A stretch of 64,000 nucleotides of DNA from an uncultured Gammaproteobacteria bacterium (lineage in GTDB: Bacteria > Patescibacteriota > Microgenomatia > Woykebacterales > RBG-16-39-9b), in assembly GCA_964360785.1 (NCBI GenBank), contig CAYHXX010000001.1, positions 260,187-324,186 of the forward strand. The letters are read 5' to 3'. The position numbers and the translations under genes were made by a program. Below the pieces are notes generated by a model that did no database searches, was not told the DNA's origin, and saw nothing but the letters and a program-made list of their open reading frames with translations. Of this stretch, positions 5,815-51,888 are shown in pieces (position 1 is the stretch's first letter; every line of letters starts with the position of its first letter).

Positions 5815-6078
5815 TTAAAAATCGAAGCGGACCTGTTTGATGCGCATTCTACCCCCGCGTTTACCAATCGCAGAGTAAAACGCCTGTCCATGGCGACGGC
5901 GAACTTCTTCACCGCCTTTTTCACCTATTTTTGAGTAGAAGTCTACTCCATAAAGCGAGCTAGTCGATTTGCCTCCACGGCGCCCTATTTCTGAAAAATA
6001 AGAGGGACCGTACTTCTTTTTTACAATCAAACCTCCACGCCTGCCCGCTTCGGTTGTTGTGATCGACATTTCTTTCAC
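5815..6078 (-). CDS. KGG-repeat general stress protein (YciG/GsiB-like)
   Basis: 87 aa containing four repeats of the IG+RGG(K/E) type (EAGRRGG, EIGRRGG, KIGEKGG, AIGKRGG), typical of the KGG stress-protein repeat. Confidence 0.6.
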   Translation of the reverse strand: MKEMSITTTEAGRRGGLIVKKKYGPSYFSEIGRRGGKSTSSLYGVDFYSKIGEKGGEEVRRRHGQAFYSAIGKRGGRMRIKQVRFDF

Positions 6079-20880: not shown

Positions 20881-22083
20881 CTAGCGGTAAACTTCGTAAC
20901 GTTTGAAGGCTACTTCATCAGGGTCAACTTGTTTGCCTTCCATTATCAGTGGAATACGTTCCAGATGTTTTAGCAACGAGCCTTTGAGATAAATCAAATC
21001 ACCAGATTTGACCAAACTAGAAAGCACTCCAGCTGCTTCGAAAACATCATTTACCCAAATTACTGTCCCCCTTTTCATATTTTTCTCAGCTTCCGTAACG
21101 ATATATTTGGTCACCGGCCCAACTGCAATAAGATAATTAGGTTTTACGAGTCCAACTTCTGCACCAACCTGACGATGACCCTTCTCCTCCCATTCGCCCA
21201 GCTCCCCCATTTCCCCAATAACTGCAATCTTTCTTTTGGCGGGATATTCGTCAAGAGCCTGTAATCCAGCAATTGCAGAGGCTGGGTTGGCTCGACGAGA
21301 ATCATTGAGTATTACCGTACCTTTTGGACCCTGTTCAATACTCATGCGACCCTCCATGGGCTTCAAAGACTCTAGTCCTCGTGCGATCAACGAAATATCC
21401 ATGTTAGATAGTATCCCAACAGCTGCCGCCGCCAGACAATTTTCAACAAAGGCAGTTCCAATCAGACTCGTACGGGCTTTGATCATCTGATCTTTATAAT
21501 GAAGATTGAACTCCAGGCCAGTAGCAGTGAGTTTGATTCTATTTGCCCAAACCGAAACTCGGTTTTTGTCAAAGCCGTAGAAAAATACTTTTCCTTTACA
21601 ATCATCGCCCATTCTTCGAACTTCTGGAATTTCATAGTTCAGAACAGCAAACCCATCTTTCGGTACTGCCTTCACTAGTTTTGCTTTTTCTTTGATAATA
21701 TTCTCGAGTGACCCAAGATGTGCCTTGTCTGCATGGACTGGGGAAATACCGGTAACAACCGCAATTTTTGGCTTCGCCAAAGACAAATGTCTATTCATCT
21801 CACCAACACGATCGACTCCATATTCCAAAATTAATTTTTCTTGGTTCGTTAGCTTTAGTATTGTGATCGGAATGTTAAAAGTTGTATCAAGATTTATATC
21901 AGTAGTTAAGGCTTTGAATTTTTGCGATAGCACTGCTTCAATCGCCGCAACCGTATTGGTTTTACCATAACTGCCAGTCACACCAATCACAGTAGCTTTG
22001 CCGTGACTCTGCAACCAAAGTTTTGCCAATAATCGTCGGGAAGTGTGAAAAAAAGGACGCGCAATATTTTTAATTCTACTCAT
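20881..22083 (-). CDS. murF: UDP-N-acetylmuramoyl-tripeptide--D-alanyl-D-alanine ligase
   Basis: 400 aa Mur ligase with a GVTGSYGKT P-loop, located upstream of mraY as in canonical dcw. Confidence 0.8.
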   Translation of the reverse strand: MSRIKNIARPFFHTSRRLLAKLWLQSHGKATVIGVTGSYGKTNTVAAIEAVLSQKFKALTTDINLDTTFNIPITILKLTNQEKLILEYGVDRVGEMNRHLSLAKPKIAVVTGISPVHADKAHLGSLENIIKEKAKLVKAVPKDGFAVLNYEIPEVRRMGDDCKGKVFFYGFDKNRVSVWANRIKLTATGLEFNLHYKDQMIKARTSLIGTAFVENCLAAAAVGILSNMDISLIARGLESLKPMEGRMSIEQGPKGTVILNDSRRANPASAIAGLQALDEYPAKRKIAVIGEMGELGEWEEKGHRQVGAEVGLVKPNYLIAVGPVTKYIVTEAEKNMKRGTVIWVNDVFEAAGVLSSLVKSGDLIYLKGSLLKHLERIPLIMEGKQVDPDEVAFKRYEVYR

Positions 22084-22108: not shown

Positions 22109-23227
22109 TCATTTGTAGAACCTGGTCACCCGACTTGCGAGGTTGACAACCACTTCATATGGGGAAGTTTGCAGTTTATCCGCAACACCTTCAACTGTGA
22201 TTTCTTCATTACCACTTTTTCCAATCAAAATCACTTCTTCACCGGCTCGAATATCTTCCGGGATATCTGTAATATCAATTGCTGCTTGGTCCATCGATAC
22301 TCGACCCGCCAGTGGTGCTCTGTGACCTTTGATCAAAACTTCACCCCAGTTATAGGGTGCCCGACGAAAACCGTCACCATAACCAACCGCCAGTGTGGCA
22401 ATACGAGAAGGATGACTAACTTTAAAGGCCCGACCGTAACCAACCGTTTCCCCAACTTGAAGTTCATGGGTTTGGACAACCTCAGTTTTGAAAGTTAGTA
22501 CTCTTTTCATTTCCGGTGAAAAAACTGATTTTGAATCCCGATTCAAACCTAGCATTGCAAGGCCCGGCCTTACCATATTGAAATGACCTTCCGGTAAATT
22601 GAAAATTCCGGCTGAGGCGGCGGCACTTTTGACTGGAATATTTATTCCTTCTTTTTCTAATTCGGCGAGAACTTTATTAAATCTTTCCAACTGAACTTTG
22701 GAAAATTCAATGTCACCATCAGCATCTGCAAAATGGGTAAAAATCCCTTCAATCTGTAAATTTGGTAGATCCTGAAGTTTTTTGACAAAGTAGAGTACTT
22801 GGTCTGGTTCCAGACCAAGCCGGTGCATACCAGTGTCGACTTTAACCCAAACCTTGGCAATTTTTTCTCTCCGTCTGGCTGCGGTAACCAGAGCTTTGGC
22901 AACGTCGAGATTTTTAACCGTGGCGGTAACATCGAAGTTAATCATGTCCTCGTAATTTTCCGCCGGGGTATAGCCCAAAATTAGAATTGGAGTTTTTATT
23001 CCGCTGCTACGCAACTCTCGCGCCTCGTAAAAAGAAGAGACGCCGAAGTAGTCAACCTTTGCCTCCTGAGCAATCTTCGCAACTCCCAACGCCCCATGAC
23101 CATAAGCATTGGCCTTGACCACAGCCATAATTTTCACACCATCACCAACGTGTTTTTTGATTACAGAAAGATTGTTTTTGATTGCGGAGGAACCAATTTC
23201 AACCCAAGCAAGACGTGGGATAGACAT
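22109..23227 (-). CDS. alr: Alanine racemase
   Basis: 372 aa with the PLP-binding motif AVVKANAYGHG. Confidence 0.88.
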   Translation of the reverse strand: MSIPRLAWVEIGSSAIKNNLSVIKKHVGDGVKIMAVVKANAYGHGALGVAKIAQEAKVDYFGVSSFYEARELRSSGIKTPILILGYTPAENYEDMINFDVTATVKNLDVAKALVTAARRREKIAKVWVKVDTGMHRLGLEPDQVLYFVKKLQDLPNLQIEGIFTHFADADGDIEFSKVQLERFNKVLAELEKEGINIPVKSAAASAGIFNLPEGHFNMVRPGLAMLGLNRDSKSVFSPEMKRVLTFKTEVVQTHELQVGETVGYGRAFKVSHPSRIATLAVGYGDGFRRAPYNWGEVLIKGHRAPLAGRVSMDQAAIDITDIPEDIRAGEEVILIGKSGNEEITVEGVADKLQTSPYEVVVNLASRVTRFYK

Positions 23228-23249: not shown

Positions 23250-24050
23250 TTAGAGGAATTTGAAGGTTGTTACAATGGTGTCTAAAACTGAAGTGTCCAA
23301 ATCTTGCTGATTACCTGGAAAGGACTGTATAAGGTAAAAAACCCTTTTGTCCTTAACAGCTAGTATCTCATACTTATTTGTATTCCACTCCCCCTTCCAA
23401 GTTGATCGCATAGCGTTTTGGTGATCTAGCAGAATATAGTCTAGTACTGAAACACCCTCTTTACTAATCCTCCTATCTTCAGCAACTTCATCGAAGGTGT
23501 CATAGGATTCTAGGCTGGCGGTATCATAAGTTATACTCACATCCGTTCCGCTGAGGTAGTAATCTCCAGACACATTTGGCTCTTGGTTAAATTTATAGTC
23601 ACCACTTAATAACCTTATACCGTTTTTATACTCATTTCCAACTGTGAAGTCAGGTGGATAGCTAAAACTAAAATACATTGTTTTGTATTCTTTCCAATTT
23701 GATGAATCCAATTTTTCTGACGAAACATTTCCCTTTTTACCAAAAATTTCTGAGGTTTTATAGTTCTTGGAATTTGCTGAGGAAGTTGAGACTTTGGTTG
23801 TGGTAATTTCATCTTCGGGTATTTTGCTTCCAGACTGGTTCTCGACGTACCACCAAATACCAGCTGTTGCAACGATTGCACCGATCAGAATCAGTCCAAC
23901 TGAAGCAAAAACTTTATGTGTATATACGTTTGGATTTTTGGCTAGTGGGTTTGGTACAGGTTTATCAAGTAGAGATGGAGAGTTTGATGGTGGAATTGCA
24001 ATCGGTGTACTTGCAGATTCTTCAGGCATTAAGATAATTATAACTCGCAA
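23250..24050 (-). CDS. Hypothetical N-terminally anchored surface protein of the TFKFL family
   Basis: The likely start is the internal MPEESAST at about 24029. It has PVPNPLAKNPNVYTHKVFASVGLILIG, the linker TTTKVSTSSANS, the ectodomain motif NWKEYKTMYFSFSYPPDF and the C-terminus IVTTFKFL. Confidence 0.5.
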   Translation of the reverse strand: MRVIIILMPEESASTPIAIPPSNSPSLLDKPVPNPLAKNPNVYTHKVFASVGLILIGAIVATAGIWWYVENQSGSKIPEDEITTTKVSTSSANSKNYKTSEIFGKKGNVSSEKLDSSNWKEYKTMYFSFSYPPDFTVGNEYKNGIRLLSGDYKFNQEPNVSGDYYLSGTDVSITYDTASLESYDTFDEVAEDRRISKEGVSVLDYILLDHQNAMRSTWKGEWNTNKYEILAVKDKRVFYLIQSFPGNQQDLDTSVLDTIVTTFKFL

Positions 24051-24130: not shown

Positions 24131-24505
24131 TTAGGCGTGTTTTTCGATCCAAGAAGCGATTTTTTCGATAGTTGGTTTTGAATTCTCAACCCACAAAGCA
24201 AAATCAACGATATCCCTGTTTGTCGCGGTGAATTTTCTTTTATTTAAGATGAGAAATTCAATCATGGAAATAGTTGCTGTTCTTTTGTTACCGTCAACAA
24301 ACATGTGATTAAGCAGCAACGAGTGAACTAAAGCAGCTGCTTTTATCTCAAGGGTTGGATAAAGATCTTTACCAACAAAAGTTTGCTGAGGCCGCATTAC
24401 CGCCGACTCCAAAAGACCAAGATCACGTAAACCTTGAGATCCTCCGGTTACTTCAACTATCTCGTAGTGAATCTGGATGACGTTCTCTGGAGTTAAATAT
24501 TTCAT
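24131..24505 (-). CDS. doc: Doc (death-on-curing) Fic-fold toxin
   Basis: 124 aa with the Doc variant Fic motif HMFVDGNKRTA. It overlaps the upstream antitoxin gene by 4 nt. Confidence 0.8.
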   Translation of the reverse strand: MKYLTPENVIQIHYEIVEVTGGSQGLRDLGLLESAVMRPQQTFVGKDLYPTLEIKAAALVHSLLLNHMFVDGNKRTATISMIEFLILNKRKFTATNRDIVDFALWVENSKPTIEKIASWIEKHA

Positions 24506-24705
24506 TTCGAAGCAAGCTCTTCGAGGGCGCCGCGGTACTCTTTGATCAAGTTTTGTGTCAAGTCGTGAATTTTTGGATCGGCGTTGAAAATAGGTTCAAT
24601 TGTGAATGACAAGGAATCACCAACTTTAAGGTTTTTTGCTTTGATTTCTGATTTTGGGATTGTTACGGCAAGCGAGTTGCCGACTTTGATAACTTTTTGA
24701 ATCAT
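24502..24705 (-). CDS. AbrB/MazE-fold (SpoVT_AbrB) antitoxin partner of Doc
   Basis: 67 aa containing KVGNSLAVTIPK, a swapped-hairpin AbrB/MazE signature. It is translationally coupled to doc. Confidence 0.7.
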   Translation of the reverse strand: MIQKVIKVGNSLAVTIPKSEIKAKNLKVGDSLSFTIEPIFNADPKIHDLTQNLIKEYRGALEELASK

Positions 24706-33398: not shown

Positions 33399-34334
33399 TT
33401 ACTGACGCTCGGCGACTCTCATCTTCACACTACGTGATCTTCTGTTTTCACTTAGCTCAGTTTCGCTCGGAACAACCGGTTTCTCAGTCAAAGACTTTAA
33501 TTCTTGTGAGTCACGGATAAATTCTTTTACTATCCGATCCTCCAGTGAGTGGAAGCTCAAAACTACCAACCGCGCACCAAGCTTCATCTGTTTCACCGCT
33601 TTCGGCAATGCAACCTTGAGTGCATTAAGTTCATCATTGACGGCTATTCGCAGAGCCATGAAAACTTTCGTTGCCGGGTCGATATCTCCTTTCCAGTTCT
33701 TACTAACCTCCTTGACTATTTTGGCCAAGTCCTCTGTTGTCTCAATCCTTCTTTCTAGTCTGCTTCTGACGATATTACGAGCAATAGGTCTTGCATTACT
33801 GACTTCGCCCAACCGAGAAAATAACTCATAAAGTTCTCCTTCGTTCAAACCATTAATAAGATCACTAGCCTTAACTGTTAGACTCTGGTCCATTCTCATA
33901 TCCAAGGGGCCTACCTTTGCAAAACTAAAACCCCTTTCAGGGGTGTCAAACATATAGCTAGAGACTCCCAAATCAAACAGCACACCCCCAACCTTTTCTA
34001 CTCCTACTTGAGATAGTGCAACGTCAAGGTTTTGGAAATTTTCCTTGATGATTTTTAAACTACTACCTGGTGCTACCCAAACCCCATCTGTCTCCACAAG
34101 ATCAAACTTCTTCCTTGCGTTTTCTATCGCGTCCTCATCTATGTCCAAAGCAATTACCTTTCCGGCAAATTTTAGAATCCCTTCTGTATGACCACCACCT
34201 CCCAAAGTACAGTCTAGGTAGGTTTCGTTTGGGATAATGTTCAGAGCCTCTAAAACCTCGCTGAAAAGAACACTTTTGTGGTAATTATCTTGATTCATTT
34301 TCTTAGATTCCTTCTTCTGAGAATTTCTCTGCAA
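33399..34334 (-). CDS. rsmH: 16S rRNA (cytosine1402-N4)-methyltransferase
   Basis: 311 aa with YHKSVLFSEVLEAL and DCTLGGGGH SAM-binding motifs, the MraW family. Confidence 0.9.
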   Translation of the reverse strand: MQRNSQKKESKKMNQDNYHKSVLFSEVLEALNIIPNETYLDCTLGGGGHTEGILKFAGKVIALDIDEDAIENARKKFDLVETDGVWVAPGSSLKIIKENFQNLDVALSQVGVEKVGGVLFDLGVSSYMFDTPERGFSFAKVGPLDMRMDQSLTVKASDLINGLNEGELYELFSRLGEVSNARPIARNIVRSRLERRIETTEDLAKIVKEVSKNWKGDIDPATKVFMALRIAVNDELNALKVALPKAVKQMKLGARLVVLSFHSLEDRIVKEFIRDSQELKSLTEKPVVPSETELSENRRSRSVKMRVAERQ

Positions 34335-36056: not shown

Positions 36057-36326
36057 ATGATTGGCTTTGTTGCTGGGTTTATTCTGGCTCTTGGGTTAAT
36101 TGGACTAACCCGTGTTACTCAAAATGTACTGGCACTCGCAGTAATTGCTACAATTCTCAAGTTTGGTATTTCCTTCTTAGTAAACCCAAACTCCACCTGG
36201 GAAATTTATCTTTTTGGCCTAGCCGTAATATTTGTTGTTAGGTTAGTGGTATTTTGGCTTTTGGTGAGGTTTGAGGATTCATTTATTGTTAAGTTTCTTG
36301 CTATTATAGCCTTAACCTTATTTTAA
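36057..36326 (+). CDS. Hypothetical small membrane protein
   Basis: 89 aa with three hydrophobic segments. Confidence 0.3.
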   Translation: MIGFVAGFILALGLIGLTRVTQNVLALAVIATILKFGISFLVNPNSTWEIYLFGLAVIFVVRLVVFWLLVRFEDSFIVKFLAIIALTLF

Positions 36327-37634
36327 CTTTTCCGCAATAAACTTTGTAACCTCTTCAATCTTAATTCGATCTTGTTTCATGCTGTCACGTTCACGGATCG
36401 TTACAGCTTTATCTTCAAGGCTATCAAAATCAACAGTGATACAAAACGGAGTGCCAATCTCGTCGGCGCGACGGTAGCGGCGGCCGATTGAACTCGTTTC
36501 ATCGTAAGTAACCATCCAGTTCTCTTTTAGTTCGTGGAAAATATCTTTGGCAATTTTTTGCAGCTTTTCGTCTTTAACTAAAGGTAAAACCGAGGCTTTA
36601 ATTGGGGCTAGTTTGGGATGAAATTTCAAAACGGTGCGAATCTCACCTTCTGCTTCCTCTTCACTGTAGGCGTCAATAAAGAAGGCGAGGAAGGCCCGAC
36701 CAACTCCAACCGATGGTTCGATAACATAGGGTAAATACTTTTCTTTATCTTCCTCGTCAAAAAAGGTTAAATCTTTACCGGAAACCTTCATATGTTGCTT
36801 GAGATCGTAATCACCGCGAGAAGCAATACCCTCGAGCTCGCCAAAGCCCATGAATGGCCAGTTGTACCAAAGCTCGGCTGTTCCCTTTGAGTAATGGGCA
36901 AGGTCCTCTTTTGGCAGCTGAATCAGTTTGATATTTTCTTTTTTTATCCCTAGGTTTAGAAACCAATTCAAGCGCTCTTTTTGCCAATATTCGTGGGCTT
37001 TTTTCTCGGTTCCCGGCTTAACAAAGTATTCTAGTTCCATCATTTCAAACTCACGCACACGGAAAAGAAAATTCCCGGTTGTAATTTCGTTGCGAAAGCC
37101 TTTACCGATTTGGGCAATTCCAAAAGGAAGTTTCACACGAGAAGATTGCATGACATTATCGAAGTTAATGAAAATTCCTTGCGCGGTTTCTGGTCGCAGG
37201 TAAACAGTGCCAGATTCATCCTCAACTGGACCAATGAAGGTCTTGAACATTAAATTAAAATCTTTTGCTTTAGTGAAATCTTTTTTTCCGCAAGTAGGAC
37301 ACTTACCATCCTCAGGCATATGATCAACCCGAATTCTACTGTGACAATCTTTACACTCTACAAGCGGGTCGGTAAAATTTTTGATATGACCGGAAGCCTC
37401 CCAAACTTTTGGGTGATGAAGAATAGTTGAATCAAGACCAACGACATCTTCACGTTTTTGGACAATTGCTTTCCACCACTCTTCTTTAATATTTTTGGCT
37501 AGTAAGGTTCCCAAAGGCCCGAGATCCCAGGTTCCATTCAACCCTCCATAAATCTCGCTACCTTGAAAGACAAAACCACGTCTTTTTGCTAGCGAAACTA
37601 ATTTTTCCATCAATTGTTCATTTGGCTTGGACAT
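36318..37634 (-). CDS. glyQS: Glycine--tRNA ligase (dimeric class II)
   Basis: 438 aa with the N-terminal motif RRGFVFQGSEIYGGLNGTWDLGPLG, characteristic of alpha2-type GlyRS. Confidence 0.9.
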   Translation of the reverse strand: MSKPNEQLMEKLVSLAKRRGFVFQGSEIYGGLNGTWDLGPLGTLLAKNIKEEWWKAIVQKREDVVGLDSTILHHPKVWEASGHIKNFTDPLVECKDCHSRIRVDHMPEDGKCPTCGKKDFTKAKDFNLMFKTFIGPVEDESGTVYLRPETAQGIFINFDNVMQSSRVKLPFGIAQIGKGFRNEITTGNFLFRVREFEMMELEYFVKPGTEKKAHEYWQKERLNWFLNLGIKKENIKLIQLPKEDLAHYSKGTAELWYNWPFMGFGELEGIASRGDYDLKQHMKVSGKDLTFFDEEDKEKYLPYVIEPSVGVGRAFLAFFIDAYSEEEAEGEIRTVLKFHPKLAPIKASVLPLVKDEKLQKIAKDIFHELKENWMVTYDETSSIGRRYRRADEIGTPFCITVDFDSLEDKAVTIRERDSMKQDRIKIEEVTKFIAEKLK

Positions 37635-37664
37635 GATTTGAAGTATATGATTTCTCTGAACCTA

Positions 37665-37692
37665 TTGCAACCTAGACAAGCTATTGTACAAT
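37665..37692 (+). promoter_or_regulatory. Candidate sigma70 promoter for csrA: TTGCAA-16-TGTACAAT
   Basis: TTGCAA (37665-37670) is followed by a 16-nt spacer and TACAAT (37687-37692) preceded by TG. It is followed by an AAAGGAGG Shine-Dalgarno sequence 7 nt before the ATG. Confidence 0.35.
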
Positions 37693-37718
37693 GGGGCTGG
37701 GGAAAGGAGGATCGCCTT

Positions 37719-37958
37719 ATGCTGATTCTGATGCGTAAGGTGGGTCAGGGAATCTGGATTGAAGGTGATATCTGGGTGAAAGTGCTCAGTGTAGAGCGCG
37801 ACCGGGTAAGGCTCGGTATCACTGCTCCGGGCGATGTGAAGGTGATGCGTCAGGAACTGTTGCACGGGGGCGAAGAGAATCAGCCCTTCGCTGATAAGGC
37901 CCAAGGTGCAACTAACAGTAAACCAACGACCGAGGTAAGTACCAGACCTCCGTCTTGA
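37719..37958 (+). CDS. csrA: Carbon storage regulator CsrA (RNA-binding global regulator)
   Basis: 79 aa beginning MLILMRKVGQGIWIEGDIWVKVLSVERDRVRLGITAPGDVKVMRQEL, which aligns to the CsrA consensus MLILTRRVGE...V.V.VL.V.G..VR.GI.AP..V.V.R.E.. The gene is markedly GC-richer than its flanks and has a strong Shine-Dalgarno sequence, unlike neighbouring genes. Confidence 0.8.
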   Translation: MLILMRKVGQGIWIEGDIWVKVLSVERDRVRLGITAPGDVKVMRQELLHGGEENQPFADKAQGATNSKPTTEVSTRPPS

Positions 37959-37982
37959 CGAGCCCCTGATCCCCCACAACCA

Positions 37983-38023
37983 GAGCTCGGCGCACCCGCG
38001 ACGAGCTCTCAATTATTATTTAC
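37983..38023 (+). terminator. Intrinsic terminator after csrA (GAGCTCG-N12-CGAGCTC stem followed by a T-rich tract)
   Basis: The 7-bp GC-containing inverted repeat at 37983-38008 is followed by tcaaTTaTTaTTT. Confidence 0.4.
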
Positions 38024-38645
38024 AAAGACCACCTAAAAAACAAGATATTTTGATAGTAACTGTACCTTCGACGAGCGCGGCCACTACCAACAACAGAAAT
38101 ACAAGCGGATAGATGGAAATAAGTTTCTTTAGGTCTTCAACAAAAACTTCTCGTCGACTTTTATCTTTTTTATCCAAAATCCAGTTTATACCCAAACGTA
38201 AACCAAAACTCATCCCCAGAAAAGTCCCTAAGTATTCAAAAATTCCGTGAGGCACAATCAATAGAAAGATTTGAAAGGGATTTGCTAAAGCATTGATAGG
38301 CAAGTACCCAAACACAACACCCAAAACCATTCCATTTATATAGGTGACAAATATTGGTACCAAACCAAAGATTGCACCCAAGAAACTTGAAACAGTAGTG
38401 ATAGTGATATTTCGAACGAAAACATAAGAACTTAGATCTAGCCCAGGCTGAACATTTTTATCAATGGAAGAAGCATAGTTTTTCAGGGCTTGTTCAGCAA
38501 AACTCGGAACAAATATAGAGATAATCAAACCGGTAGTGACCCCACAGACAAAAATTACACCCGTTAGTAAAACCCAGCTTTTGTTTACCAATATCGTATT
38601 CTTGTAATAACCAAATACTTTTTTGAGGCTTGGAGTCAGATTCAT
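38016..38645 (-). CDS. SpoIIM/DUF95-family membrane protein
   Basis: 209 aa with 5-6 TM helices and the conserved LIVPHGIFE block of the stage II sporulation protein M-like family. Confidence 0.6.
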   Translation of the reverse strand: MNLTPSLKKVFGYYKNTILVNKSWVLLTGVIFVCGVTTGLIISIFVPSFAEQALKNYASSIDKNVQPGLDLSSYVFVRNITITTVSSFLGAIFGLVPIFVTYINGMVLGVVFGYLPINALANPFQIFLLIVPHGIFEYLGTFLGMSFGLRLGINWILDKKDKSRREVFVEDLKKLISIYPLVFLLLVVAALVEGTVTIKISCFLGGLCK

Positions 38646-39466: not shown

Positions 39467-41339
39467 ATTGCTCCTTTATCACACCGTTTATCTTAATAAC
39501 CATGTCCACATACTCGACTCCGGGTTGTTTTTGTATCAACATTTTATAGTCCTCCCCAGGTTGAATCTTGAAAGGTAAGCGATATGTAAAACTGGACAAA
39601 GTCGAGTTGAGTGGGTAGGTTGCCGAATACCCCCGAAAAACTTCCTTGCCAAACTCCTGACCACTACTAAAATCCTTTGGAACTTTTTTACTGATCAAAA
39701 TACTGTTCTCAGGAACATAAATCCGCATCCAGTTTAGATAGATAGAATTGAGCCAACCGTCCGCTCTGGCGGTATTGGAAAGAGTCACATCGACTGTTTT
39801 AGTTACATTACCACTTTCATCTATTTTTATATCCTGGACAACCTTTTGCTTCATATACAGATTACCCTTCAACCCTCCGAAATTGGAATTGTTCAGATGA
39901 AAATAATCATATTTTGAATCATGTATTTGACCGGCGTAATTGTATTTTTCTACAAAATTCTGCGCTGGAGTGTTGTGGAAATAAAACAGGATATGTTTTT
40001 CCTTAGCTGTTTTGGCAAAGACTTCGAGGTACTTTGGGAATTCTTCAGTTTTTGAATTCATGATTTTCTCGAGAAGCGCATCCATGAGTTCTCCCACGAT
40101 ACCTTTTCTGTCAGGTTTACTTTGATTTATTTTCTCAGCATGAAGCTCAAGTTTGTAAACTACATCCGGGATCCCTAATCTATTCTTCTCAGCCGAAAAA
40201 GTCTCTTTGGTCTTCTTTGTGGTGATTGGACCAGTAACTGCTACGAAACTGCGTACAAACTCAGTATCCAAAGCAAAAATACCATCGACTTTAGGCATCT
40301 TTGGGATGGTGTTGTACATACTTTCAAATTTCTGTGCTGAAACTTTGTAGTCTGGAGAAATATTGGAATCTCTGATTGGCAAGCTGTTGTGACCAATATA
40401 CTTTCTGATAGCCTCGGGTGCTACCTCAGTGCGTTTATACTTTAAATCTAGCTGGTAGATATCATCACTGTCAGTAGAAATAATCTGTCCACCTTTTACT
40501 TTTACCAAAGCGTAAGCTGTAATAAAACCTCCGGTGGCACGTAATTCTTTATCGTTTTGTAACAAAATTAGATAGGTCTTCTCTTGCGGCTCACCAGCAA
40601 TCTCCGGGGCTGCCAAAAGCAGTGGTTTCACCTCCGGAATAATTTGGTTGGCTTGACTGACAGCGTTCTTCGCTTTCGTTAAAGCTTCTTTCACACTAAA
40701 ACCTTTTACCTTAAAACCACTCGGGTAACGATCAGGATTTATCTGATCAAGTTCTTCACCGATTTCCGCTAGTTTTGTGCTCGCCTCATCCACAAGAGGA
40801 ATTAGTTCCGGAACCACTTCTTTAACTATTTTCTGCGCTTTTTGCTCAGTAGTTATTTCCTCTTTCTCCTCTGATTTGAACCCAAGAACATCGGCAAATG
40901 GGTCAAGCGCCTTCAATCCGTGATCGCCTAGCTCCACTCCACTATCAAGAATATTTAAAAGATGCTCACCATCATTGTAGTAACCTGCAAGAATCGGAAT
41001 ATATTTGGTAAAAGAAAGTTTCGAAAATTCTTCCCTTGTCTTTTTTGACTCAGAATCTAGTTTTTGTAGCTCGTTCTCGGCTTTCTGTATGTCTTTTTCC
41101 TGTAGTGCATCCTCAACATTTTTGGCTTGGGTATAGGTTTCCTCAACTTGTTCACTCAGAACCTTTGCACGCGGGTAGATAATTGCTGCTAGTAAAGCGC
41201 CTACAACAAGCAACACACCTAGCGTTACAACTATCGTGAACAGTGCGCTTTTGAGAAAAAGTTTGAGCGAAAATTTTGCTGAAGTTTTATCCTCAACTTT
41301 TATTTCTTTTGGAGCAGTATCGATGTACTTTACACTCAT
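39426..41339 (-). CDS. Large N-terminally anchored extracytoplasmic protein, DUF4012-like, associated with polysaccharide loci
   Basis: 637 aa with a single N-terminal TM helix and a coiled-coil-rich N-terminal third followed by a large soluble domain. It sits immediately upstream of the initiating sugar transferase. Confidence 0.4.
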   Translation of the reverse strand: MSVKYIDTAPKEIKVEDKTSAKFSLKLFLKSALFTIVVTLGVLLVVGALLAAIIYPRAKVLSEQVEETYTQAKNVEDALQEKDIQKAENELQKLDSESKKTREEFSKLSFTKYIPILAGYYNDGEHLLNILDSGVELGDHGLKALDPFADVLGFKSEEKEEITTEQKAQKIVKEVVPELIPLVDEASTKLAEIGEELDQINPDRYPSGFKVKGFSVKEALTKAKNAVSQANQIIPEVKPLLLAAPEIAGEPQEKTYLILLQNDKELRATGGFITAYALVKVKGGQIISTDSDDIYQLDLKYKRTEVAPEAIRKYIGHNSLPIRDSNISPDYKVSAQKFESMYNTIPKMPKVDGIFALDTEFVRSFVAVTGPITTKKTKETFSAEKNRLGIPDVVYKLELHAEKINQSKPDRKGIVGELMDALLEKIMNSKTEEFPKYLEVFAKTAKEKHILFYFHNTPAQNFVEKYNYAGQIHDSKYDYFHLNNSNFGGLKGNLYMKQKVVQDIKIDESGNVTKTVDVTLSNTARADGWLNSIYLNWMRIYVPENSILISKKVPKDFSSGQEFGKEVFRGYSATYPLNSTLSSFTYRLPFKIQPGEDYKMLIQKQPGVEYVDMVIKINGVIKEQFDLREDKEVTIKL

Positions 41340-42037
41340 CAGGCAGTATTCCCTTCCCCTTTCATAACAGCTTTCGGGGTTTTACAAAGTATTAGCAAAT
41401 CGAGCAATAATGATTTTCTTTGTGCGTAACTCGCGTCCATTTCAATTCTTTTTTCAAAACCTACCTCACTACGCCCAGATACTTGCCACAACCCTGTCAT
41501 TCCTGGTTTTACTGTTAGGGCTTTCTTGATAAACTCTTTACAACTTGGAAACTTGTCCTTCTGCTCAGCTAACTCATCTGGGTAATATGCTCTCGGCCCA
41601 ACTAAACTCATTTGTCCAACCAACACGTTTAAAAATTGTGGCAACTCATCAATGCTTGCCCTTCTCAGAACTCTACCAACTGGTGTAACACGTGGATCGT
41701 TCGCCAGTTTGAAACTATTTCGTTTGTATTGGTCCAAAAGTTCCTTATATTTTGGATCTGTTCTAATAAGATCATGGGAGTTCTTAACCATAGTACGGAA
41801 TTTCAACATTCTAAAAACTTTTTCATCCTGACCTATTCTATCTGAATGTTCGACGAAAACAGAACCTTCAGAAGTTATCTTGATCAGAAAAGCTGAAATC
41901 ACAATAACTGGAGAAAAGAGCAATAGACCTACAAGAGAGCCAAATATATCAACACACCTTTTTACAAATTCATAAAGCATAAATTGGAAAGTCAAGCTTA
42001 AAAAATGGCAAAGGAAACACTCCTTTGCCTGCTTCAA
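41339..42037 (-). CDS. Initiating polyprenyl-phosphate sugar-phosphate transferase (bacterial sugar transferase, WbaP/PglC-like C-domain)
   Basis: Contains [10 protein letters not shown]...[21 protein letters not shown], the signature of the PF02397 family. The probable start is the internal MLYEF at about 41980. Confidence 0.85.
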
Positions 42038-42054
42038 AAGTAACTCAAATTATA

Positions 42055-43140
42055 TCATAAATAACGCTGTTTTTCTGAATCTTTAAGTTGCTGAACAATT
42101 TTCTTTACGTCTTGGCTTCTTGCCTTCGGGCAGATCAATAGAGCATCTGGTGTATCCACAATTATCATGCTTTCCAAACCGATCGTAGCAACTAATTTAC
42201 CCTCGTTAGTTTGGAAGACCAAACAATCTACTGAATCTAGATCAACGTGCTCACCTCTTACTACATTTAATTCCTCGCTTTCTGCCAACTCGTCCTTAAA
42301 TACATTCCAGGCTCCAACGTCAGTCCAACCTAGAACTGCTGGAATTTCCAATTGGTCTTCCTTACCCAATTTCTCAAATAGAGCATGGTCGATCATAACC
42401 TTTGGGATTTTGCTATATTCCTGGGCAATAATTTCTGACTCAGTCTCTGCTCCAAATGCTTCTTGGATTTTTTTGAGACTTTCAAAGGTCTCTGGCGTAT
42501 ATCTTTCAAATAGTTCCATGATTTTCTTTAGAGGCCAAACAAAATACCCAGTATTCCAAAGGTAGTTTCCTGATTCTAAGAATTTCTCTGCTGTTTTATG
42601 GTCTGGCTTCTCTACGTGTCTAATAAATTCAAGGATATCGAAGCCATCAACCTCTTCTATTCTTCTACCAACCTCAATATACCCAAGATGAGGACTAGGA
42701 AAAGTCGGTCGAACGTCAACTTTTGCAATAACATTTTTTTCTTTGGCTAGTTTCTCAGCTGTTTTTAAAGCTTTTACAAAAGTATCTTTCTCCCGCACTA
42801 TGTGGTCCGCCCCCCAAATTGCAGCCATGGTTTCTCCAGGGAATTTCTTAGCCAGGTAAGCGCTGGCAAAACTAACTGCTGCGAGTGTATCTCGCATTTC
42901 TGGCTCTCCAAGAATATTCTCGCTTGGTAACTCTGGAACCTGTTTTTTTACCAGAGGAATAAACTTTTCCCCAGTCAAAACAAAAACATCTTCTGGTGAA
43001 AACCCTCTCAGGACCATAGCAACCATTTCCTGAAACAGTGAGCGTTCCCCAACCAGTTTTTGGAACTGCTTTGGCATTTCTTGACGAGACAGAGGCCACA
43101 TCCGTGTACCAGAACCTCCAGAAAAGATTACAATCTTCAA
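42055..43140 (-). CDS. manC: Mannose-1-phosphate guanylyltransferase (GDP-mannose pyrophosphorylase)
   Basis: 361 aa beginning MKIVIFSGGSGTRMWPLSR, with a nucleotidyltransferase domain and a C-terminal beta-helix-like region. Confidence 0.8.
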   Translation of the reverse strand: MKIVIFSGGSGTRMWPLSRQEMPKQFQKLVGERSLFQEMVAMVLRGFSPEDVFVLTGEKFIPLVKKQVPELPSENILGEPEMRDTLAAVSFASAYLAKKFPGETMAAIWGADHIVREKDTFVKALKTAEKLAKEKNVIAKVDVRPTFPSPHLGYIEVGRRIEEVDGFDILEFIRHVEKPDHKTAEKFLESGNYLWNTGYFVWPLKKIMELFERYTPETFESLKKIQEAFGAETESEIIAQEYSKIPKVMIDHALFEKLGKEDQLEIPAVLGWTDVGAWNVFKDELAESEELNVVRGEHVDLDSVDCLVFQTNEGKLVATIGLESMIIVDTPDALLICPKARSQDVKKIVQQLKDSEKQRYL

Positions 43141-44276
43141 GTTAATTTCCTTTCTTTCAAGATCTTACCAACATAATTAATGATATTTTCTTTAAATAGC
43201 TTTTTTGAAAACTTCTTTGCCTGGTTCTTACAATCTTCTGGATTAATTTTCATGGTTTCAAATTTTTTCACAGCTTCTATTATAGACTCTGGTTCTTGTT
43301 TATTGAAAAAAATACCTGTCTGACCATCTACTACTGTTTCCAGTGCTCCACCAGCAGCGTAAGTAATAACTGGTATTCCTGCAGCCATTGCTTCCACAGG
43401 TACTATACCAAAATCTTCAAACGTTGGGAAAATCAATGCCTTTGCATTTTGCAATAAGTTCGTAACTTCTGAGTCCGACAATCTACCGAGCAACTCGACA
43501 TTTGGTGCAGCTATCTTCTTCAACAATGAAAATTGTGGGCCTTCCCCAACTATTTTCAGCCTCAAACCTAATTTATTAAACGCCTTGACTGCAGTATCAA
43601 CTTTTTTATAGCCCCCCAAACGGGAAATGATTATATAGTAGTTTTCTTTCTTAGAGCTGTCAGTTTTTGAAAATCTCTCAACATCTACTGGCGGGTATAT
43701 AACAGTAGAGTCTCTGTGGTAGTGCTTTTCAATTCTTTTTTGAACTTCAAGAGAGTTCGTCAGGAAATAATCAATCTTTTGGGCTGCTCCAAAGTCCGCT
43801 CTCTTTAGGAATGCTTTAAATAGAGGTACCAAAATCATGTATAGTGGCGCCAACAATCTATCAAACCAGCGTCGGTAATAACGTGACAACTCTGTGTCAT
43901 ATCCCCAAAGAAACCTTGGTACAGTGTGAAGATAGCAAATATGGACCGCTCCTTTTTTTCCTCTGACAAATTTTGAAGCATAAGAACAGGTGCTAATTAT
44001 CAAATCAGCATCTTCCAAATTCTGAAACCGAAAGGCCAGTGGGTAGAGAAAAAAATAATGTTTTGTGAGGTACTTGTTAAATGGCAGTTTACTTATAAAA
44101 TTGGTTTTTATTTTCTTTGAGGGGATCTTCAACCAACTCTCCATCAGCTTCTTATCGTAAATACTTGTATAGACAGTTGCGTCGGGATAGAGCTCGTAAA
44201 GAGCTTCCAGAACCCGTTCCCCACCGCCATATTGATTGAGATAATCATGAACTAATGCTATTTTTAATTGTTTCAT
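43137..44276 (-). CDS. Glycosyltransferase family 4 (GT-B, retaining)
   Basis: 379 aa. The C-terminal half carries the E..GIVPVEAMAAGIPVI GT4 donor-binding motif. Confidence 0.8.
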   Translation of the reverse strand: MKQLKIALVHDYLNQYGGGERVLEALYELYPDATVYTSIYDKKLMESWLKIPSKKIKTNFISKLPFNKYLTKHYFFLYPLAFRFQNLEDADLIISTCSYASKFVRGKKGAVHICYLHTVPRFLWGYDTELSRYYRRWFDRLLAPLYMILVPLFKAFLKRADFGAAQKIDYFLTNSLEVQKRIEKHYHRDSTVIYPPVDVERFSKTDSSKKENYYIIISRLGGYKKVDTAVKAFNKLGLRLKIVGEGPQFSLLKKIAAPNVELLGRLSDSEVTNLLQNAKALIFPTFEDFGIVPVEAMAAGIPVITYAAGGALETVVDGQTGIFFNKQEPESIIEAVKKFETMKINPEDCKNQAKKFSKKLFKENIINYVGKILKERKLT

Positions 44277-48286: not shown

Positions 48287-49915
48287 TTAAGATAAAAGGT
48301 TAATTGCTTGGTTGAAATAAGGATCTTCTTCTTTTAAGAGTTTCTGCCACTTTTCTCTACAAAACTCTCCTTCTTTTTTCAGTCGTTTTGCTTTTTCTGA
48401 TGTTGTATCTAAACCCCGAGTTAACGATTCGTAATGATAAAGCTCGGCATAAGGCGTCCAAACAACTCGGTAACCCATCTGGTAAATCTTTAAACAAAGG
48501 TCGATGTCGTTAAAAGCAATTGGTAAGTTTTCCTCAAAGCCCCCAACTTTTTCAAACAGTTCCTTTTTGAGTAAAAGACAAGCGCCAGTCACAGCTCGAT
48601 AATTTTGAGGTGTAATTAATCTGTAAAAATAACCTGGATCAGTTCTTGGTTTTTGGACAAACACATGGCCAGCGAAATCCCCTACTCCCAGTATAGCACC
48701 GGCGTGCTGAATCGTATTGTTTGGATAATAGAGTTTTGCACCAACAATTCCCACACCTTTTTTTTCTGCCACTGCTAGCATTTCTTCCAGCCAGTTTGGG
48801 GTAATAATCTCTGTATCATTATTTAAAAACAATAAATACTCGGCACTACTCTTTTTAGCAGCGAAATTATTTAAAGTAGAAAAGCTAAAAGGAAAGTTGT
48901 AGTCGACAATCTTTAGATTATCAAATTTTGAAATTTCTTCGAAATAGTCCAGAGTTCTTTTCTCTTCACTTTGATTATTAACCACACAGATTTCGTAATT
49001 ATGATAAGTAGTCTTCATCACGATTGAGTCTAGACATTTTTTCAACACTTCGACTTTATCTCTAGTCGGTATAATGACGGTTATTTTTGGATGAATCTTT
49101 AATTGGTAACTAATGTTAAAAACATTATTAAATTTTGTGCTTTCAACAGAAGCTAGAACTCCCGTTTTTTCTAAACTAGCTTTAATTAAATCTGGGTTAA
49201 TTGTGTAAACTGTCTTTCCCTTCTGATTATGGTAAAGAATTTTATTTACATGAGAAGCTTTATTTTCCAGAGCAATCTGGAATATAACCTCTCCGAAGTT
49301 ATTTGGTTTAATATCTTTGATTAGATTAAATCTCTCTTTAAACAACTTATTTTTTATTATTATTCCGTTTCCAAGATAGTTGAAACTTTCAAAATATTCT
49401 GGCGACCAATCAGGTTTTAGAGAAGGAGAAAAGCGATTATTCAAGCTTCCAATGTAAACATCCTCATCAGTATAAAAGAGATTGGATTCAGAATTAGTAT
49501 TGACAGCAAAAGCAACTTCATAGAGTGCTTCGGGAGAAAGCAGGTCTCCTGATTGTAAAAAAACTATGTAATCGCCCCAGTTTTCTTTTTCGTAAAGCTT
49601 TTCCAGGCCCTCTTTCAACGAGGTCAGGTTCCAGTTTAAATAAATTTGCTTTTCCAAGGACTTCAAGGATAGGTCTTCATCTAGCTTATTTTTTTCGTTT
49701 GAAAATATCAGTACTGTAAACTTTGGCCTTTTTAAAAAACCTTCGATATTCTTTTTCAGTTTAATAAGCTCACCTGAATTTGGTTCGTTAGCTTTAAGCC
49801 AAGATCGGTAGGGAAAATTTTTTGAAGGAATTAATTTACTAAGTATTTTAATAAAAAATACTCTAAGACCCTTGTTTTTTATTGTTGAAAGACTCTTCCT
49901 GATTAAATTGGCCAT
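48287..49915 (-). CDS. Tandem GT2 glycosyltransferase with a degenerate first domain and an intact second domain
   Basis: 542 aa. The C-terminal domain has ITVIIPTRDK...NDTE. The N-terminal half resembles the first GT2 domain of the 913-aa protein (YTDEDVY...KPDWSPEYF) but has lost the DxD-region consensus. Confidence 0.7.
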   Translation of the reverse strand: MANLIRKSLSTIKNKGLRVFFIKILSKLIPSKNFPYRSWLKANEPNSGELIKLKKNIEGFLKRPKFTVLIFSNEKNKLDEDLSLKSLEKQIYLNWNLTSLKEGLEKLYEKENWGDYIVFLQSGDLLSPEALYEVAFAVNTNSESNLFYTDEDVYIGSLNNRFSPSLKPDWSPEYFESFNYLGNGIIIKNKLFKERFNLIKDIKPNNFGEVIFQIALENKASHVNKILYHNQKGKTVYTINPDLIKASLEKTGVLASVESTKFNNVFNISYQLKIHPKITVIIPTRDKVEVLKKCLDSIVMKTTYHNYEICVVNNQSEEKRTLDYFEEISKFDNLKIVDYNFPFSFSTLNNFAAKKSSAEYLLFLNNDTEIITPNWLEEMLAVAEKKGVGIVGAKLYYPNNTIQHAGAILGVGDFAGHVFVQKPRTDPGYFYRLITPQNYRAVTGACLLLKKELFEKVGGFEENLPIAFNDIDLCLKIYQMGYRVVWTPYAELYHYESLTRGLDTTSEKAKRLKKEGEFCREKWQKLLKEEDPYFNQAINLLS

Positions 49916-51336: not shown

Positions 51337-51888
51337 TTAACCGGGCTTAACTTTCCAAAAATCTTCTCCGAAAACATCCCAAGGAAGTCGTCTTTCATCC
51401 GGGTTTTCAATATTGAATTGCTGATTCACGAAGTAAAAGACATACAAAGATTCCGGTCCTAAATTAGCATACCCATGAGCCACCCCAGAGGGAATAAGAA
51501 GCATATGTGATTTACCCCCACCTAAAATTAATTTCACCTTCACATTTTTTGTTGGAGATGATTCTCTGGTGTCAACTAGTCCAACCGTCAGAACTCCGTC
51601 AGGTGGAATATACCAAAGGTCTTGCTGTTTAAAATGTAGGTGCCAAGCTTTTATTGACCCTGGCATGACTTTACTGAGGTTAATTTGTCTTAGTTGAAAA
51701 TTTTCTAACCCTTCAAAGGAACCGGAATCAGAGAGACGTCCTACTTCGCAAAGAAAACCATCTTCGGCGGTAAAATTCTTCAGTTCCCAAACCTTTACCC
51801 CATCAATTTGTTGGCTCTTTGAATAATCCTGTACTTTAATTTTTTCACGAAAATCTTTTAAGATATCTTTTTTTGTTAGTTCTTCCAT
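51337..51888 (-). CDS. RmlC-like cupin (dTDP-4-dehydrorhamnose 3,5-epimerase family)
   Basis: 183 aa cupin. It has a WHLHF..Q core and AHGY, resembling the RmlC RGLHFQ...AHGF motifs. The exact specificity is uncertain. Confidence 0.55.
   Translation of the reverse strand: MEELTKKDILKDFREKIKVQDYSKSQQIDGVKVWELKNFTAEDGFLCEVGRLSDSGSFEGLENFQLRQINLSKVMPGSIKAWHLHFKQQDLWYIPPDGVLTVGLVDTRESSPTKNVKVKLILGGGKSHMLLIPSGVAHGYANLGPESLYVFYFVNQQFNIENPDERRLPWDVFGEDFWKVKPG

What the first reader, a model, noticed from the sequence alone, without database searches (positions are those of the whole stretch)
37640..38023. GC-rich roughly 370-bp island encoding CsrA with its own promoter, strong Shine-Dalgarno sequence and GC-clamped terminator
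Between glyQS and a SpoIIM-like gene, both on the minus strand, lies a plus-strand cassette. It comprises TTGCAA-16-TGTACAAT, AAAGGAGG, a 79-aa CsrA homolog and a GAGCTCG-N12-CGAGCTC terminator. Its base composition is visibly far richer in G+C than everything around it, and its Shine-Dalgarno sequence is much stronger than those of neighbouring genes. This is the signature of a recently acquired, self-contained regulatory gene. CsrA normally works with sRNA or FliW antagonists, and none is evident in this window. The CsrA also carries a C-terminal extension (…GGEENQPFADKAQGATNSKPTTEVSTRPPS).
Basis: seen in the sequence. Interest (0 to 1): 0.65.

Follow-up and report, generated by a model that had tools for sequence, protein, structure and literature searches.

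The report
Mosaic, GC-rich csrA in a Patescibacterium
The GC-rich patch is a real gene for the RNA-binding regulator CsrA in an ultra-small groundwater bacterium; the gene has long sat at this spot under a native promoter, but most of its coding sequence looks swapped in from high-GC Chloroflexota-type bacteria, so it is an ordinary regulator with an unusual history.

Summary
Window 37719-37958 (+) encodes a 79-aa CsrA (Pfam 65 bits). Segment 37693-38010 is the strongest GC-rich segment of the window (0.575 against 0.395). It runs from just after the -10 box to the end of a -18 kcal/mol hairpin. The Shine-Dalgarno (SD) site is the strongest of 66 ORFs. Two other assemblies carry the same junctions, so it is not a chimera.

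The host is a Microgenomates-type Patescibacterium. csrA sits at the same place, divergent from glyRS, in relatives L148, L003 and L004, with the same promoter blocks. Its -35 hexamer TTGCAA is a palindrome shared with the glyRS promoter. Promoter and leader are therefore native, not imported.

The coding core does look foreign. It nests in a CsrA clade otherwise found only in high-GC Chloroflexota-type contigs (44/48 identical; 300/300 bootstraps), whereas the relatives carry a different clade. GC3 is 0.57 against 0.38 expected. The tail motif HGGEENQPF is of the other clade, so the gene is a mosaic.

No sampled donor exceeds 82% nucleotide identity, so the swap is not very recent.

The C-terminal extension is a subfamily trait. 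No FliW gene or Csr-type sRNA was found in the window.

Verdict: new member of a known kind; modest interest.

The parts
37665..37670 (.). Palindromic -35 hexamer TTGCAA, shared by the divergent csrA (+) and glyRS (-) promoters
   Evidence: The consensus scan finds TTGCAA-16-TACAAT on + and TTGCAA-17-TATACT on - using the same hexamer. The block TATTGCAACCTAGACA is invariant in L148, L003 and L004. A TTGCAA...TATACT arrangement is also seen by eye upstream of glyRS in csrA-less L005 (sequence printed).
37687..37692 (+). csrA -10 box TACAAT
   Evidence: GTACAATG is invariant in all four csrA-bearing relatives.
37642..37647 (-). glyRS -10 box TATACT, ending 7 nt before the glyRS ATG (leaderless-like)
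   Evidence: AAGTATA is invariant in the alignment.
37693..37718 (+). csrA 5' leader with SD AAAGGAGG (37703-37710) carrying two overlapping GGA motifs
   Evidence: strongest SD of 66 ORFs. The leader can be aligned with those of L004 and L148 (54-65% identity) but not with the Chloroflexota clade-1 leaders.
37719..37862 (+). csrA codons 1-48: CsrA core domain of the Chloroflexota-type 'clade 1'
   Evidence: Pfam and PDB matches. 44/48 identical to clade 1. 300/300 NJ bootstraps. Codons 13-44 are 80-83% nt-identical to clade-1 genes against 64-67% to clade-2 genes and 66-67% to the CPR relatives at the same locus. Core GC3 is 0.625.
37863..37958 (+). csrA codons 49-79 plus stop: C-terminal tail; motif HGGEENQPF (37863-37889) is clade-2-like, the rest is low-complexity
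   Evidence: The motif is 23/30 nt identical to the L118 tail against 9-11/30 to clade-1 tails. 28 of 115 clade-2 proteins carry the motif; among 118 clade-1 proteins only this organism's does.
37982..38009 (+). GC-clamped hairpin between the convergent csrA and spoIIM genes; probable intrinsic terminator with an imperfect U-tract
   Evidence: I1. Relatives L003, L148 and L004 have hairpin-plus-T-run terminators at the same place.
37693..38010 (+). Maximal GC-rich segment, equal to the predicted csrA transcription unit
36318..37634 (-). glyRS (class II GlyRS), divergent neighbour
38016..38645 (-). SpoIIM-family membrane protein, convergent neighbour; part of the co-directional recO-spoIIM-glyRS array that csrA interrupts

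Best explanation
The segment is a functional, monocistronic csrA gene of a Microgenomates-type Patescibacterium.

Origin. The locus is old and native. csrA lies between spoIIM/recO and glyRS, reads away from glyRS, and is driven by a promoter whose palindromic -35 (TTGCAA) also serves the leaderless-like glyRS promoter. The coding sequence has a lateral history. Codons of roughly 5-48 derive from a CsrA clade otherwise seen only in high-GC Chloroflexota-type genomes. They replaced the core of an earlier resident allele in situ, by recombination within the conserved gene ends. The native promoter, the leader and SD, and a clade-2-type tail motif were retained. The GC excess has two sources. About half comes from the Gly/Arg/Val/Ala-rich protein. 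The rest comes from donor-like synonymous codons (CTG, GTG, CAG) that are only partly ameliorated.

Mechanism (inferred from family knowledge). The protein forms a homodimer that binds GGA motifs in mRNA leaders and at SD sites and blocks or modulates translation. This probably includes its own GGA-containing SD. In a genome where few genes have an SD, the regulon is probably small.

Status of each step. Shown here: gene identity, composition, synteny, promoter conservation and gene-tree conflict. Inferred: the recombination mechanism, the direction and timing of transfer, RNA binding, autoregulation, and the identity of the antagonist (unknown).
For: Identity:
- Pfam 65 bits.
- PDB CsrA/RsmE matches at E 1e-8 to 1e-6, with L2, L4, R6, K7, V40, V42, R44, E46 and L47 aligned.

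Real and contiguous:
- Assemblies L001 and L002 carry the same junctions.

Old locus:
- csrA is divergent from glyRS in L148, L003 and L004 with invariant promoter blocks.
- The same position is occupied in the more distant L040, L047 and L078.
- Neighbouring proteins are only 38-69% identical.

Foreign core:
- GC3 is 0.57 against 0.376 expected.
- Ribosomal protein L21 has GC3 0.375, so expression-linked codon bias does not explain it.
- All 26 metagenome loci with a clade-1 core have flanks of GC 0.62-0.73. The three clade-1 loci fetched from named proteins are at 0.65-0.72.
- Sources name several clade-1 members Chloroflexota or Dehalococcoidia.
- The window joins clade 1 in 300/300 bootstraps, while L003, L004, L047, L078 and L119 fall in clade 2.
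- The donor-clade leader differs from the window's.

Mosaic:
-.

Recurrent cross-phylum sharing:
- L119 (CPR) and L118 (GC 0.67) share 47/48 core residues.
- L078 (CPR) and P0233 in L149 (GC 0.65) share 46/48.

Expression context:
- csrA is reported among the highly expressed genes of ultra-small groundwater prokaryotes (PMC9938205).
Against: - The phylogenetic signal rests on 48 aligned residues and NJ trees.
- The species tree of the relatives is not resolved. GlyRS favours L148/L003, while RecO, SpoIIM, p159 and DUF4012 favour L004. Which lineage was replaced is therefore inferred by parsimony only.
- The proposed crossover regions are short, roughly 12-20 nt of high identity.
- The tail and 3' UTR, which are not clade-1-like, are also GC-rich (tail GC 0.54; 0.57-0.72 in 40-nt windows over 37960-38019). 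This needs either an earlier import or selection.
- csrA units are also the top GC-rich segments in L004, L040 and L047. L040 has no close high-GC relative. That could point to selection for GC-rich csrA mRNA rather than transfer.
- No donor closer than 82% nt identity was found.
- RNA binding and regulation were not tested.
Confidence: 0.6

Rival explanations
1. One reading: a recently inserted, self-contained foreign cassette (promoter, SD, gene and terminator) placed between glyRS and spoIIM.
For: - Sharp compositional boundaries at 37693 and 38010.
- Atypical codon usage and the strongest SD in the window.
- Opposite orientation inside a co-directional recO-spoIIM-glyRS array.
- L005 and L006 lack csrA at this site.
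- Clade-1 affinity of the core.
Against: - The promoter lies outside the GC-rich segment and is invariant in L148, L003 and L004, which carry a different csrA clade.
- The -35 hexamer doubles as the glyRS -35 and also exists in L005.
- The leader and SD align with the relatives' leaders, not with donor leaders.
- The tail motif is not of the donor clade.
- No target-site duplication, integrase or tRNA is present.
- Identity to any sampled donor is at most 82% nt, with near-saturated synonymous sites.
Confidence: 0.08
2. No transfer into this lineage. csrA was inherited vertically. Its GC-richness is maintained by amino-acid composition plus selection on the mRNA (stability, structure or codon choice). 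Its likeness to Chloroflexota CsrAs reflects extreme purifying selection.
For: - Protein composition alone raises the expected GC from 0.40 to 0.466.
- The csrA unit is also the top GC-rich segment in L004, L040 and L047.
- The GC-rich segment coincides with the transcript.
- The transcript without its terminator folds somewhat better than shuffles (z -2.0, 8 of 200 shuffles as good).
- The family core is extremely conserved.
Against: - Gene-tree conflict: the window falls in clade 1, the syntenic relatives in clade 2, in 300/300 bootstraps.
- 11 of 11 diagnostic core positions match clade 1 (comparison of the sequences; nucleotide support).
- L148, L003 and L119 csrA genes are not GC-rich (GC3 0.38-0.39), so no general selective rule holds.
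- Ribosomal protein L21 shows no GC3 rise.
- Three separate CPR CsrAs each have a 92-98% identical high-GC counterpart.
Confidence: 0.2
3. Assembly chimera or contaminant: a high-GC read cluster mis-joined into a low-GC contig.
For: Only the compositional jump itself.
Against: - A Logan assembly of run ERR3858110 (100% identity over 2281 bp) and ENA assembly ERZ1292618 (3 mismatches in 12,140 bp) both span the two junctions.
- Relatives have csrA at the same site.
- GC3 is intermediate rather than donor-like.
Confidence: 0.02

Closest known systems
CsrA/RsmA family (Pfam PF02599; E. coli CsrA 1Y00, P. fluorescens RsmE 2JPP)
   Same: Core of about 48 residues aligned end to end. L2, L4, R6, K7, V40, V42, R44, E46 and L47 are conserved. 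Small monocistronic gene with GGA motifs in its own SD.
   Different: Scores just below the NCBIfam csrA equivalog cut-off (64.1 against 70.1). M43 stands in place of H43. Two Trp residues in strand beta-2 (W13, W19). A 31-residue tail. No CsrB/RsmZ-type sRNA was found in the window. The host is an SD-poor Patescibacterium.
FliW-antagonised CsrA of Bacillus, Geobacillus (5DMB) and Campylobacter
   Same: Extended C-terminus. HMMER aligns the window's E52-E53-N54 with B. subtilis E53-E54-N55. N55 is the key FliW contact (PMC7829508).
   Different: The I/V51 equivalent is Gly. The two glycines probably break the helix (my inference). No fliW or flagellar gene occurs in the 64-kb window or beside csrA in any fetched locus.
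Unnamed 'clade 1' CsrAs of high-GC Chloroflexota/Dehalococcoidia MAGs (e.g. P0008, P0020, P0083, P0084)
   Same: 44/48 identical core. The same signature GIWIEGDIWVKVLSVERDRV. A variable tail.
   Different: Those genes sit in genomes of GC 0.62-0.73. They lie next to a divergent wHTH-like gene of about 119 aa and have a long leader ending AGCAGG-ATG. Their tails lack ENQPF.
Laterally mobile csrA alleles (plasmid, phage and ICE-borne Rsm/CsrT in Pseudomonas and Legionella; PMC7366521)
   Same: csrA is a gene with a documented history of lateral spread and a patchy distribution.
   Different: No mobile element is present here. The exchange appears to be an allelic replacement at a fixed chromosomal locus, across phyla.

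Membership tests
CsrA/RsmA (PF02599) | Match to the family HMM above the curated threshold | tested here: met
   65.4 bits against cut-off 27, residues 1-48 of a 53-position profile.
CsrA/RsmA (PF02599) | NCBIfam csrA equivalog (TIGR00202) cut-off | tested here: not met
   64.1 bits against 70.1; NF002469 57.4 against 73. It is a family member but falls below the strict equivalog score.
CsrA/RsmA (PF02599) | RNA-binding residues of regions 1 and 2, above all R44 | tested here: met
   L2, L4, R6, K7, V40, V42, R44, E46 and L47 align with RsmE, CsrA and B. subtilis CsrA. R44 is essential according to PMC7366521. These positions are invariant across the subfamily alignment.
CsrA/RsmA (PF02599) | Interleaved homodimeric beta-sandwich fold | not tested
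   Only sequence matches to solved CsrA structures. No structure model was made.
CsrA/RsmA (PF02599) | Binds GGA motifs and regulates translation | not testable with these tools
   Needs EMSA, CLIP or genetic experiments.
FliW-regulated CsrA | C-terminal extension with a conserved Asn (N55) | tested here: inconclusive
   The protein is 79 aa. N54 aligns with B. subtilis N55 when a 1-residue gap is allowed.
FliW-regulated CsrA | Conserved V/I51 | tested here: not met
   The aligned position is Gly (G50; G51 aligns with Q52) (requirement from PMC7829508).
FliW-regulated CsrA | fliW (PF02623) present, usually adjacent | tested here: not met
   No FliW or flagellar family among the 66 ORFs of the window, and none beside csrA in the fetched loci whose genes carry Pfam listings. 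The rest of the genome could not be examined.
sRNA-sponge-regulated CsrA (CsrB/RsmZ type) | GGA-rich sponge sRNA | tested here: not met
   No Rfam family reached gathering score in the window. The window is about 95% coding. The rest of the genome was not examined.
Recently acquired genomic islet / mobile cassette | Compositional deviation from the host | tested here: met
Recently acquired genomic islet / mobile cassette | Absent from the same locus in related genomes | tested here: not met
   Present in L148, L003 and L004 with the same promoter; absent only in L005 and L006.
Recently acquired genomic islet / mobile cassette | Mobility signatures (integrase, tRNA target, flanking repeats, relatives on phages or plasmids) | tested here: not met
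   No tRNA. No flanking repeats. CsrAs on viral contigs are at most 60% identical. No plasmid DNA match.
Recently acquired genomic islet / mobile cassette | Gene tree conflicts with genome relationships | tested here: met
   This applies to the coding core only.

The most novel reading that the evidence does not exclude
csrA alleles are repeatedly exchanged between high-GC Chloroflexota-type bacteria and Microgenomates-type Patescibacteria, and in one Microgenomates group always at the same glyRS-linked locus. This would happen because the ultra-small cells live attached to, or take up DNA from, those hosts. Their CsrA, with its conserved EENQPF tail motif, would need to stay compatible with a partner (RNA or protein) shared with or derived from the host lineage. 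The csrA allele type would then mark host association.
Probability: 0.12. Interest if true: 0.6.

Novelty: new member of a known kind. Interest (0 to 1): 0.35.

Why it matters
CsrA is a well-understood global regulator, and finding another copy is not news. csrA is already annotated in such metagenomes and has been reported as highly expressed in ultra-small groundwater prokaryotes (PMC9938205).

Three things are worth keeping:
1. This is a clean, checkable example of cross-phylum replacement of a regulator's coding core inside a conserved native promoter and leader in a streamlined CPR genome. Three separate CPR lineages carry near-identical copies of high-GC CsrAs.
2. It raises a question. 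What does an SD-occluding regulator control in a genome where few genes have an SD and many look leaderless? And what antagonises it when no FliW gene or sponge RNA is visible?
3. The conserved tail motif (W/L)H(E/G)GEENQPF is a concrete candidate partner-binding site.

None of this opens a long-standing problem, so interest is modest.

Tried and rejected
- Rfam at gathering thresholds and the tRNA scan of the whole window found nothing.
- A full Pfam scan of 66 ORFs found no FliW and no flagellar genes.
- The 116-aa antisense ORF 37662-38012 has no family match. I treat it as a shadow ORF of GC-rich DNA.
- Expression-linked codon bias was tested with ribosomal protein L21 (GC3 0.375) and FtsZ (0.364). 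There is no rise, so it was rejected as the cause on this thin sample.
- mRNA-structure selection: the whole transcript folds at z -3.1, but most of that is the terminator. Without the terminator z is -2.0, which is weak.
- Phage vector: a scan of viral contigs found CsrAs at most 60% identical and none of clade 1 or 2.
- Plasmid vector: no DNA match.
- Flanking direct or inverted repeats: only short chance matches.
- The conserved ~119-aa neighbour of csrA in Chloroflexota has no homologue in the window.
- Dating the transfer with synonymous sites failed. Codon identity at conserved residues is 0.44-0.53 for csrA and 0.48-0.55 for glyRS against the close relatives L003-L006, both near saturation.
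- The GlyRS tree as a species proxy proved unreliable for the inner nodes (bootstraps 59-63, and conflict with RecO and SpoIIM).
- A paper on HGT in groundwater Patescibacteria does not mention csrA or Chloroflexota donors.

Full report
**1. What is there**

Window 37719-37958 (+) is an intact ORF of 79 codons, MLILMRKVGQGIWIEGDIWVKVLSVERDRVRLGITAPGDVKVMRQELLHGGEENQPFADKAQGATNSKPTTEVSTRPPS. It matches Pfam CsrA over residues 1-48 at 65.4 bits against a cut-off of 27. It also matches solved CsrA/RsmE structures at E 1e-8 to 1e-6, with L2, L4, R6, K7, V40, V42, R44, E46 and L47 in place. It falls just short of the NCBIfam csrA equivalog cut-off, 64.1 against 70.1.

Its neighbours are a class II GlyRS (36318-37634, -) and a SpoIIM-family protein (38016-38645, -), followed by RecO and a DUF4012 protein. 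A 116-aa antisense ORF over the same DNA has no family match. I take it for a shadow ORF.

**2. Is the composition really deviant?**

Yes.
- The best 300-bp GC window of the whole 64 kb is 37711-38010, at 0.567 against a mean of 0.395 (z 3.9).
- The maximal GC-rich segment is 37693-38010 (0.575). Its score is 21.0, against a mean of 8.6 and a maximum of 14.3 in 100 shuffles.
- The segment starts at the base after the -10 box and ends with the hairpin. It therefore equals the predicted transcription unit and excludes the promoter.
- With host codon usage the CsrA protein would have GC 0.466 and GC3 0.376. The observed values are 0.540 and 0.570. About half of the excess is therefore amino-acid composition and half is synonymous.
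- The gene prefers CTG, GTG and CAG, which the host uses rarely.
- The one ribosomal-protein gene in the window (L21) has GC3 0.375. An expression-linked codon bias does not explain the excess, although this is a single gene.

**3. Signals**

Promoters. The scan finds TTGCAA (37665-37670)-16-TACAAT (37687-37692) on the + strand. On the - strand it finds the same palindromic hexamer, then 17 nt, then TATACT (37647-37642), which ends 7 nt before the glyRS ATG.

SD. AAAGGAGG (37703-37710) pairs with the anti-SD at -11.9 kcal/mol. That is rank 1 of 66 ORFs (mean -2.0), and only 2 of 66 ORFs have GGAGG. Even when alternative starts are allowed, only 7 of 66 ORFs reach -8 kcal/mol. Fifteen of 66 ORFs have a TATAAT-like box 4-13 nt before the start. 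The host therefore looks SD-poor, with many leaderless-like genes.

Terminator. The hairpin 37982-38009 folds at -18.2 kcal/mol (z -4.5), but it is followed by an interrupted U-tract.

**4. Not an artefact**

A Logan assembly of run ERR3858110 is 100% identical over 2281 bp. An ENA assembly (ERZ1292618, 'Hain_H52') is identical over 12,140 bp except for 3 mismatches. Both span the two junctions.

**5. Host and locus history**

GlyRS relatives are Patescibacteria MAGs of the Levy-, Woyke- and Amesbacteria type, and DUF4012 fits that.

csrA lies at the same place, divergent from glyRS, in L148, L003 and L004. It also lies between recO and glyRS in the more distant L040, L047 and L078. L005 and L006 lack it.

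In the window, L148, L003 and L004 the only long invariant blocks of the intergenic region are these:
- AAGTATA, which is the glyRS -10 box;
- TATTGCAACCTAGACA, which contains the shared -35;
- GTACAATG, which contains the csrA -10 box.

L005 keeps a TTGCAA...TATACT arrangement in front of glyRS without csrA (read by eye from the sequence).

These genomes are not close. Neighbouring proteins are 38-69% identical, with GlyRS alone at 86-95%. Synonymous sites of glyRS are nearly saturated. The csrA promoter, and hence a csrA gene, has therefore been at this site for a long time.

The order of branching among the window, L004 and L148/L003 differs between genes.

**6. Where the coding sequence comes from**

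The best protein matches outside the species form what I call 'clade 1', with core MLILVRKVQQGIWIEGDIWVKVLSVERDRVKLGITAPGDVKVMRQEL. They are 44/48 identical to the window. Where a source names them, the name is Chloroflexota or Dehalococcoidia.
- All 26 metagenome loci with this core have flanks of GC 0.62-0.73 and gene GC3 of 0.72-0.92.
- The three loci fetched from named clade-1 proteins have GC 0.65-0.72.
- Nucleotide identity to the window core is 72-82%. Only about half of the conserved residues use the same codon.

The CsrAs of the relatives at the same locus belong to 'clade 2', with core ...GIVISGNILVRVLGVERDRVKIGISAPGEVTVLRQEL. In NJ trees the window joined a pure clade-1 group in 300 of 300 bootstraps, while L003, L004, L047, L078 and L119 fell in clade 2.

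Clade-1 genes have a different leader, ending ...AGCAGG-ATG with GGGGAG about 50 nt upstream. The window's leader aligns with those of L004 and L148.

The window's tail starts with HGGEENQPFADK.
- This motif occurs in 28 of 115 clade-2 proteins. Among 118 clade-1 proteins it occurs only in this organism's own.
- It is 23/30 nt identical to the tail of L118, against 9-11/30 to clade-1 tails.

The gene is therefore a mosaic of five parts:
- a native promoter and leader;
- a clade-1 core;
- a clade-2-type tail motif;
- a unique low-complexity end;
- a GC-rich terminator.

**7. A wider pattern**

- L119/L120 is a 0.43-GC, CPR-like contig of 0.98 Mb. It has a clade-2 CsrA 47/48 identical to that of L118 (GC 0.67), at another locus and with no GC anomaly.
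- L078's CsrA is 46/48 identical to P0233, which lies in a 0.65-GC contig.
- The csrA unit is also the top GC-rich segment in L004, L040 and L047, but not in L003, L148, L078 or L119.

I read this as repeated import of high-GC alleles at various stages of amelioration. L040 has no close high-GC relative, so selection for GC-rich csrA mRNA cannot be excluded. Folding gives only weak support for that alternative: z is -2.0 without the terminator.

**8. How it most likely works**

From family knowledge, the CsrA dimer binds GGA motifs in leaders and at SD sites and alters translation. R44 is essential for this (PMC7366521).

The gene's own SD carries AGGAGGA, and a further GGA lies at codon 11 (GGA, 37749-37751). 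Autoregulation is therefore plausible, but this is inference. Other ORFs with GGA-containing SD-like sites include rsmH (33399-34334), recO, the DUF4012 gene and 5815-6078.

No FliW, flagellar gene or Rfam sRNA is present in the window. HMMER aligns E52-E53-N54 with B. subtilis E53-E54-N55. N55 is the critical FliW contact, but the second determinant, V/I51, is Gly here (PMC7829508). The antagonist is unknown.

**9. Known or new?**

csrA is annotated in such metagenomes. It has been reported among the highly expressed genes of ultra-small groundwater prokaryotes (PMC9938205). Lateral traffic of csrA alleles is documented in Proteobacteria (PMC7366521).

This is a new member of a known family. 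Its less common features are cross-phylum replacement of the core inside a conserved native expression context, and a -35 hexamer shared with glyRS.

**10. Verdict**

Interest is modest (0.35).

Noticed in passing
window-wide, e.g. 20881-22083, 22109-23227, 41339-42037, 43137-44276, 48287-49915, 51337-51888, 36318-37634: The genome looks SD-poor and rich in leaderless-like genes. 15 of 66 ORFs have a TATAAT-like box ending 4-13 nt before the start codon, and only 2 of 66 have GGAGG upstream.
   Followed up: partly
window 24131-24705 (-): A Fic/DOC-family toxin (24131-24505) with a MazE/AbrB-type antitoxin (24502-24705) sits inside the mur/dcw cell-wall cluster.
   Followed up: no
window 8269-9156, 16958-17443, 23250-24050: Three PsbP_2-like proteins are scattered through the cell-division and cell-wall cluster.
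   Followed up: no
L083 5327-6000, L084 5362-6000, L087 5361-6000: Chloroflexota clade-1 csrA genes have a conserved divergent neighbour of about 119 aa (weak MarR_2, wHTH-like). They also have an upstream region of about 280-310 bp whose last 60 nt, the part examined, end AGCAGG-ATG with GGGGAG about 50 nt upstream. This may be an autoregulatory leader. It is absent from the window.
   Followed up: partly
P0151, P0152, P0169, P0186, P0194, P0196 and others; window 37863-37889: A short conserved tail motif, W-H-E-G-E-E-N-Q-P-F-(E/D)-K-K, follows the CsrA core in many clade-2 proteins from both high-GC and CPR genomes. It is a candidate partner-binding site.
   Followed up: partly
window 37713-37742; same place in L004: The start codon lies in a predicted hairpin: CGCCUUAUGC pairs with GCGUAAGGUG of codons 5-8, and the SD stays unpaired. 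By eye, the pairing bases also appear to be present in L004 but not obviously in L148 or L003. This was not tested further.
   Followed up: no
window 36318-37634 against L003-L006 and L148: GlyRS is 86-95% identical among genomes whose neighbouring proteins are only 38-69% identical. The GlyRS tree disagrees with RecO, SpoIIM, p159 and DUF4012 about the closest relative. GlyRS is either unusually constrained or itself exchanged.
   Followed up: partly
P0121, P0129: Two proteins carry tandem duplicated CsrA domains in one chain (126 and 98 aa).
   Followed up: no
L119/L120 5001-5339: In a different CPR lineage csrA lies just upstream of pyrG-groES-groEL. It is called with a 40-residue N-terminal extension that may be a mis-called start.
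   Followed up: no
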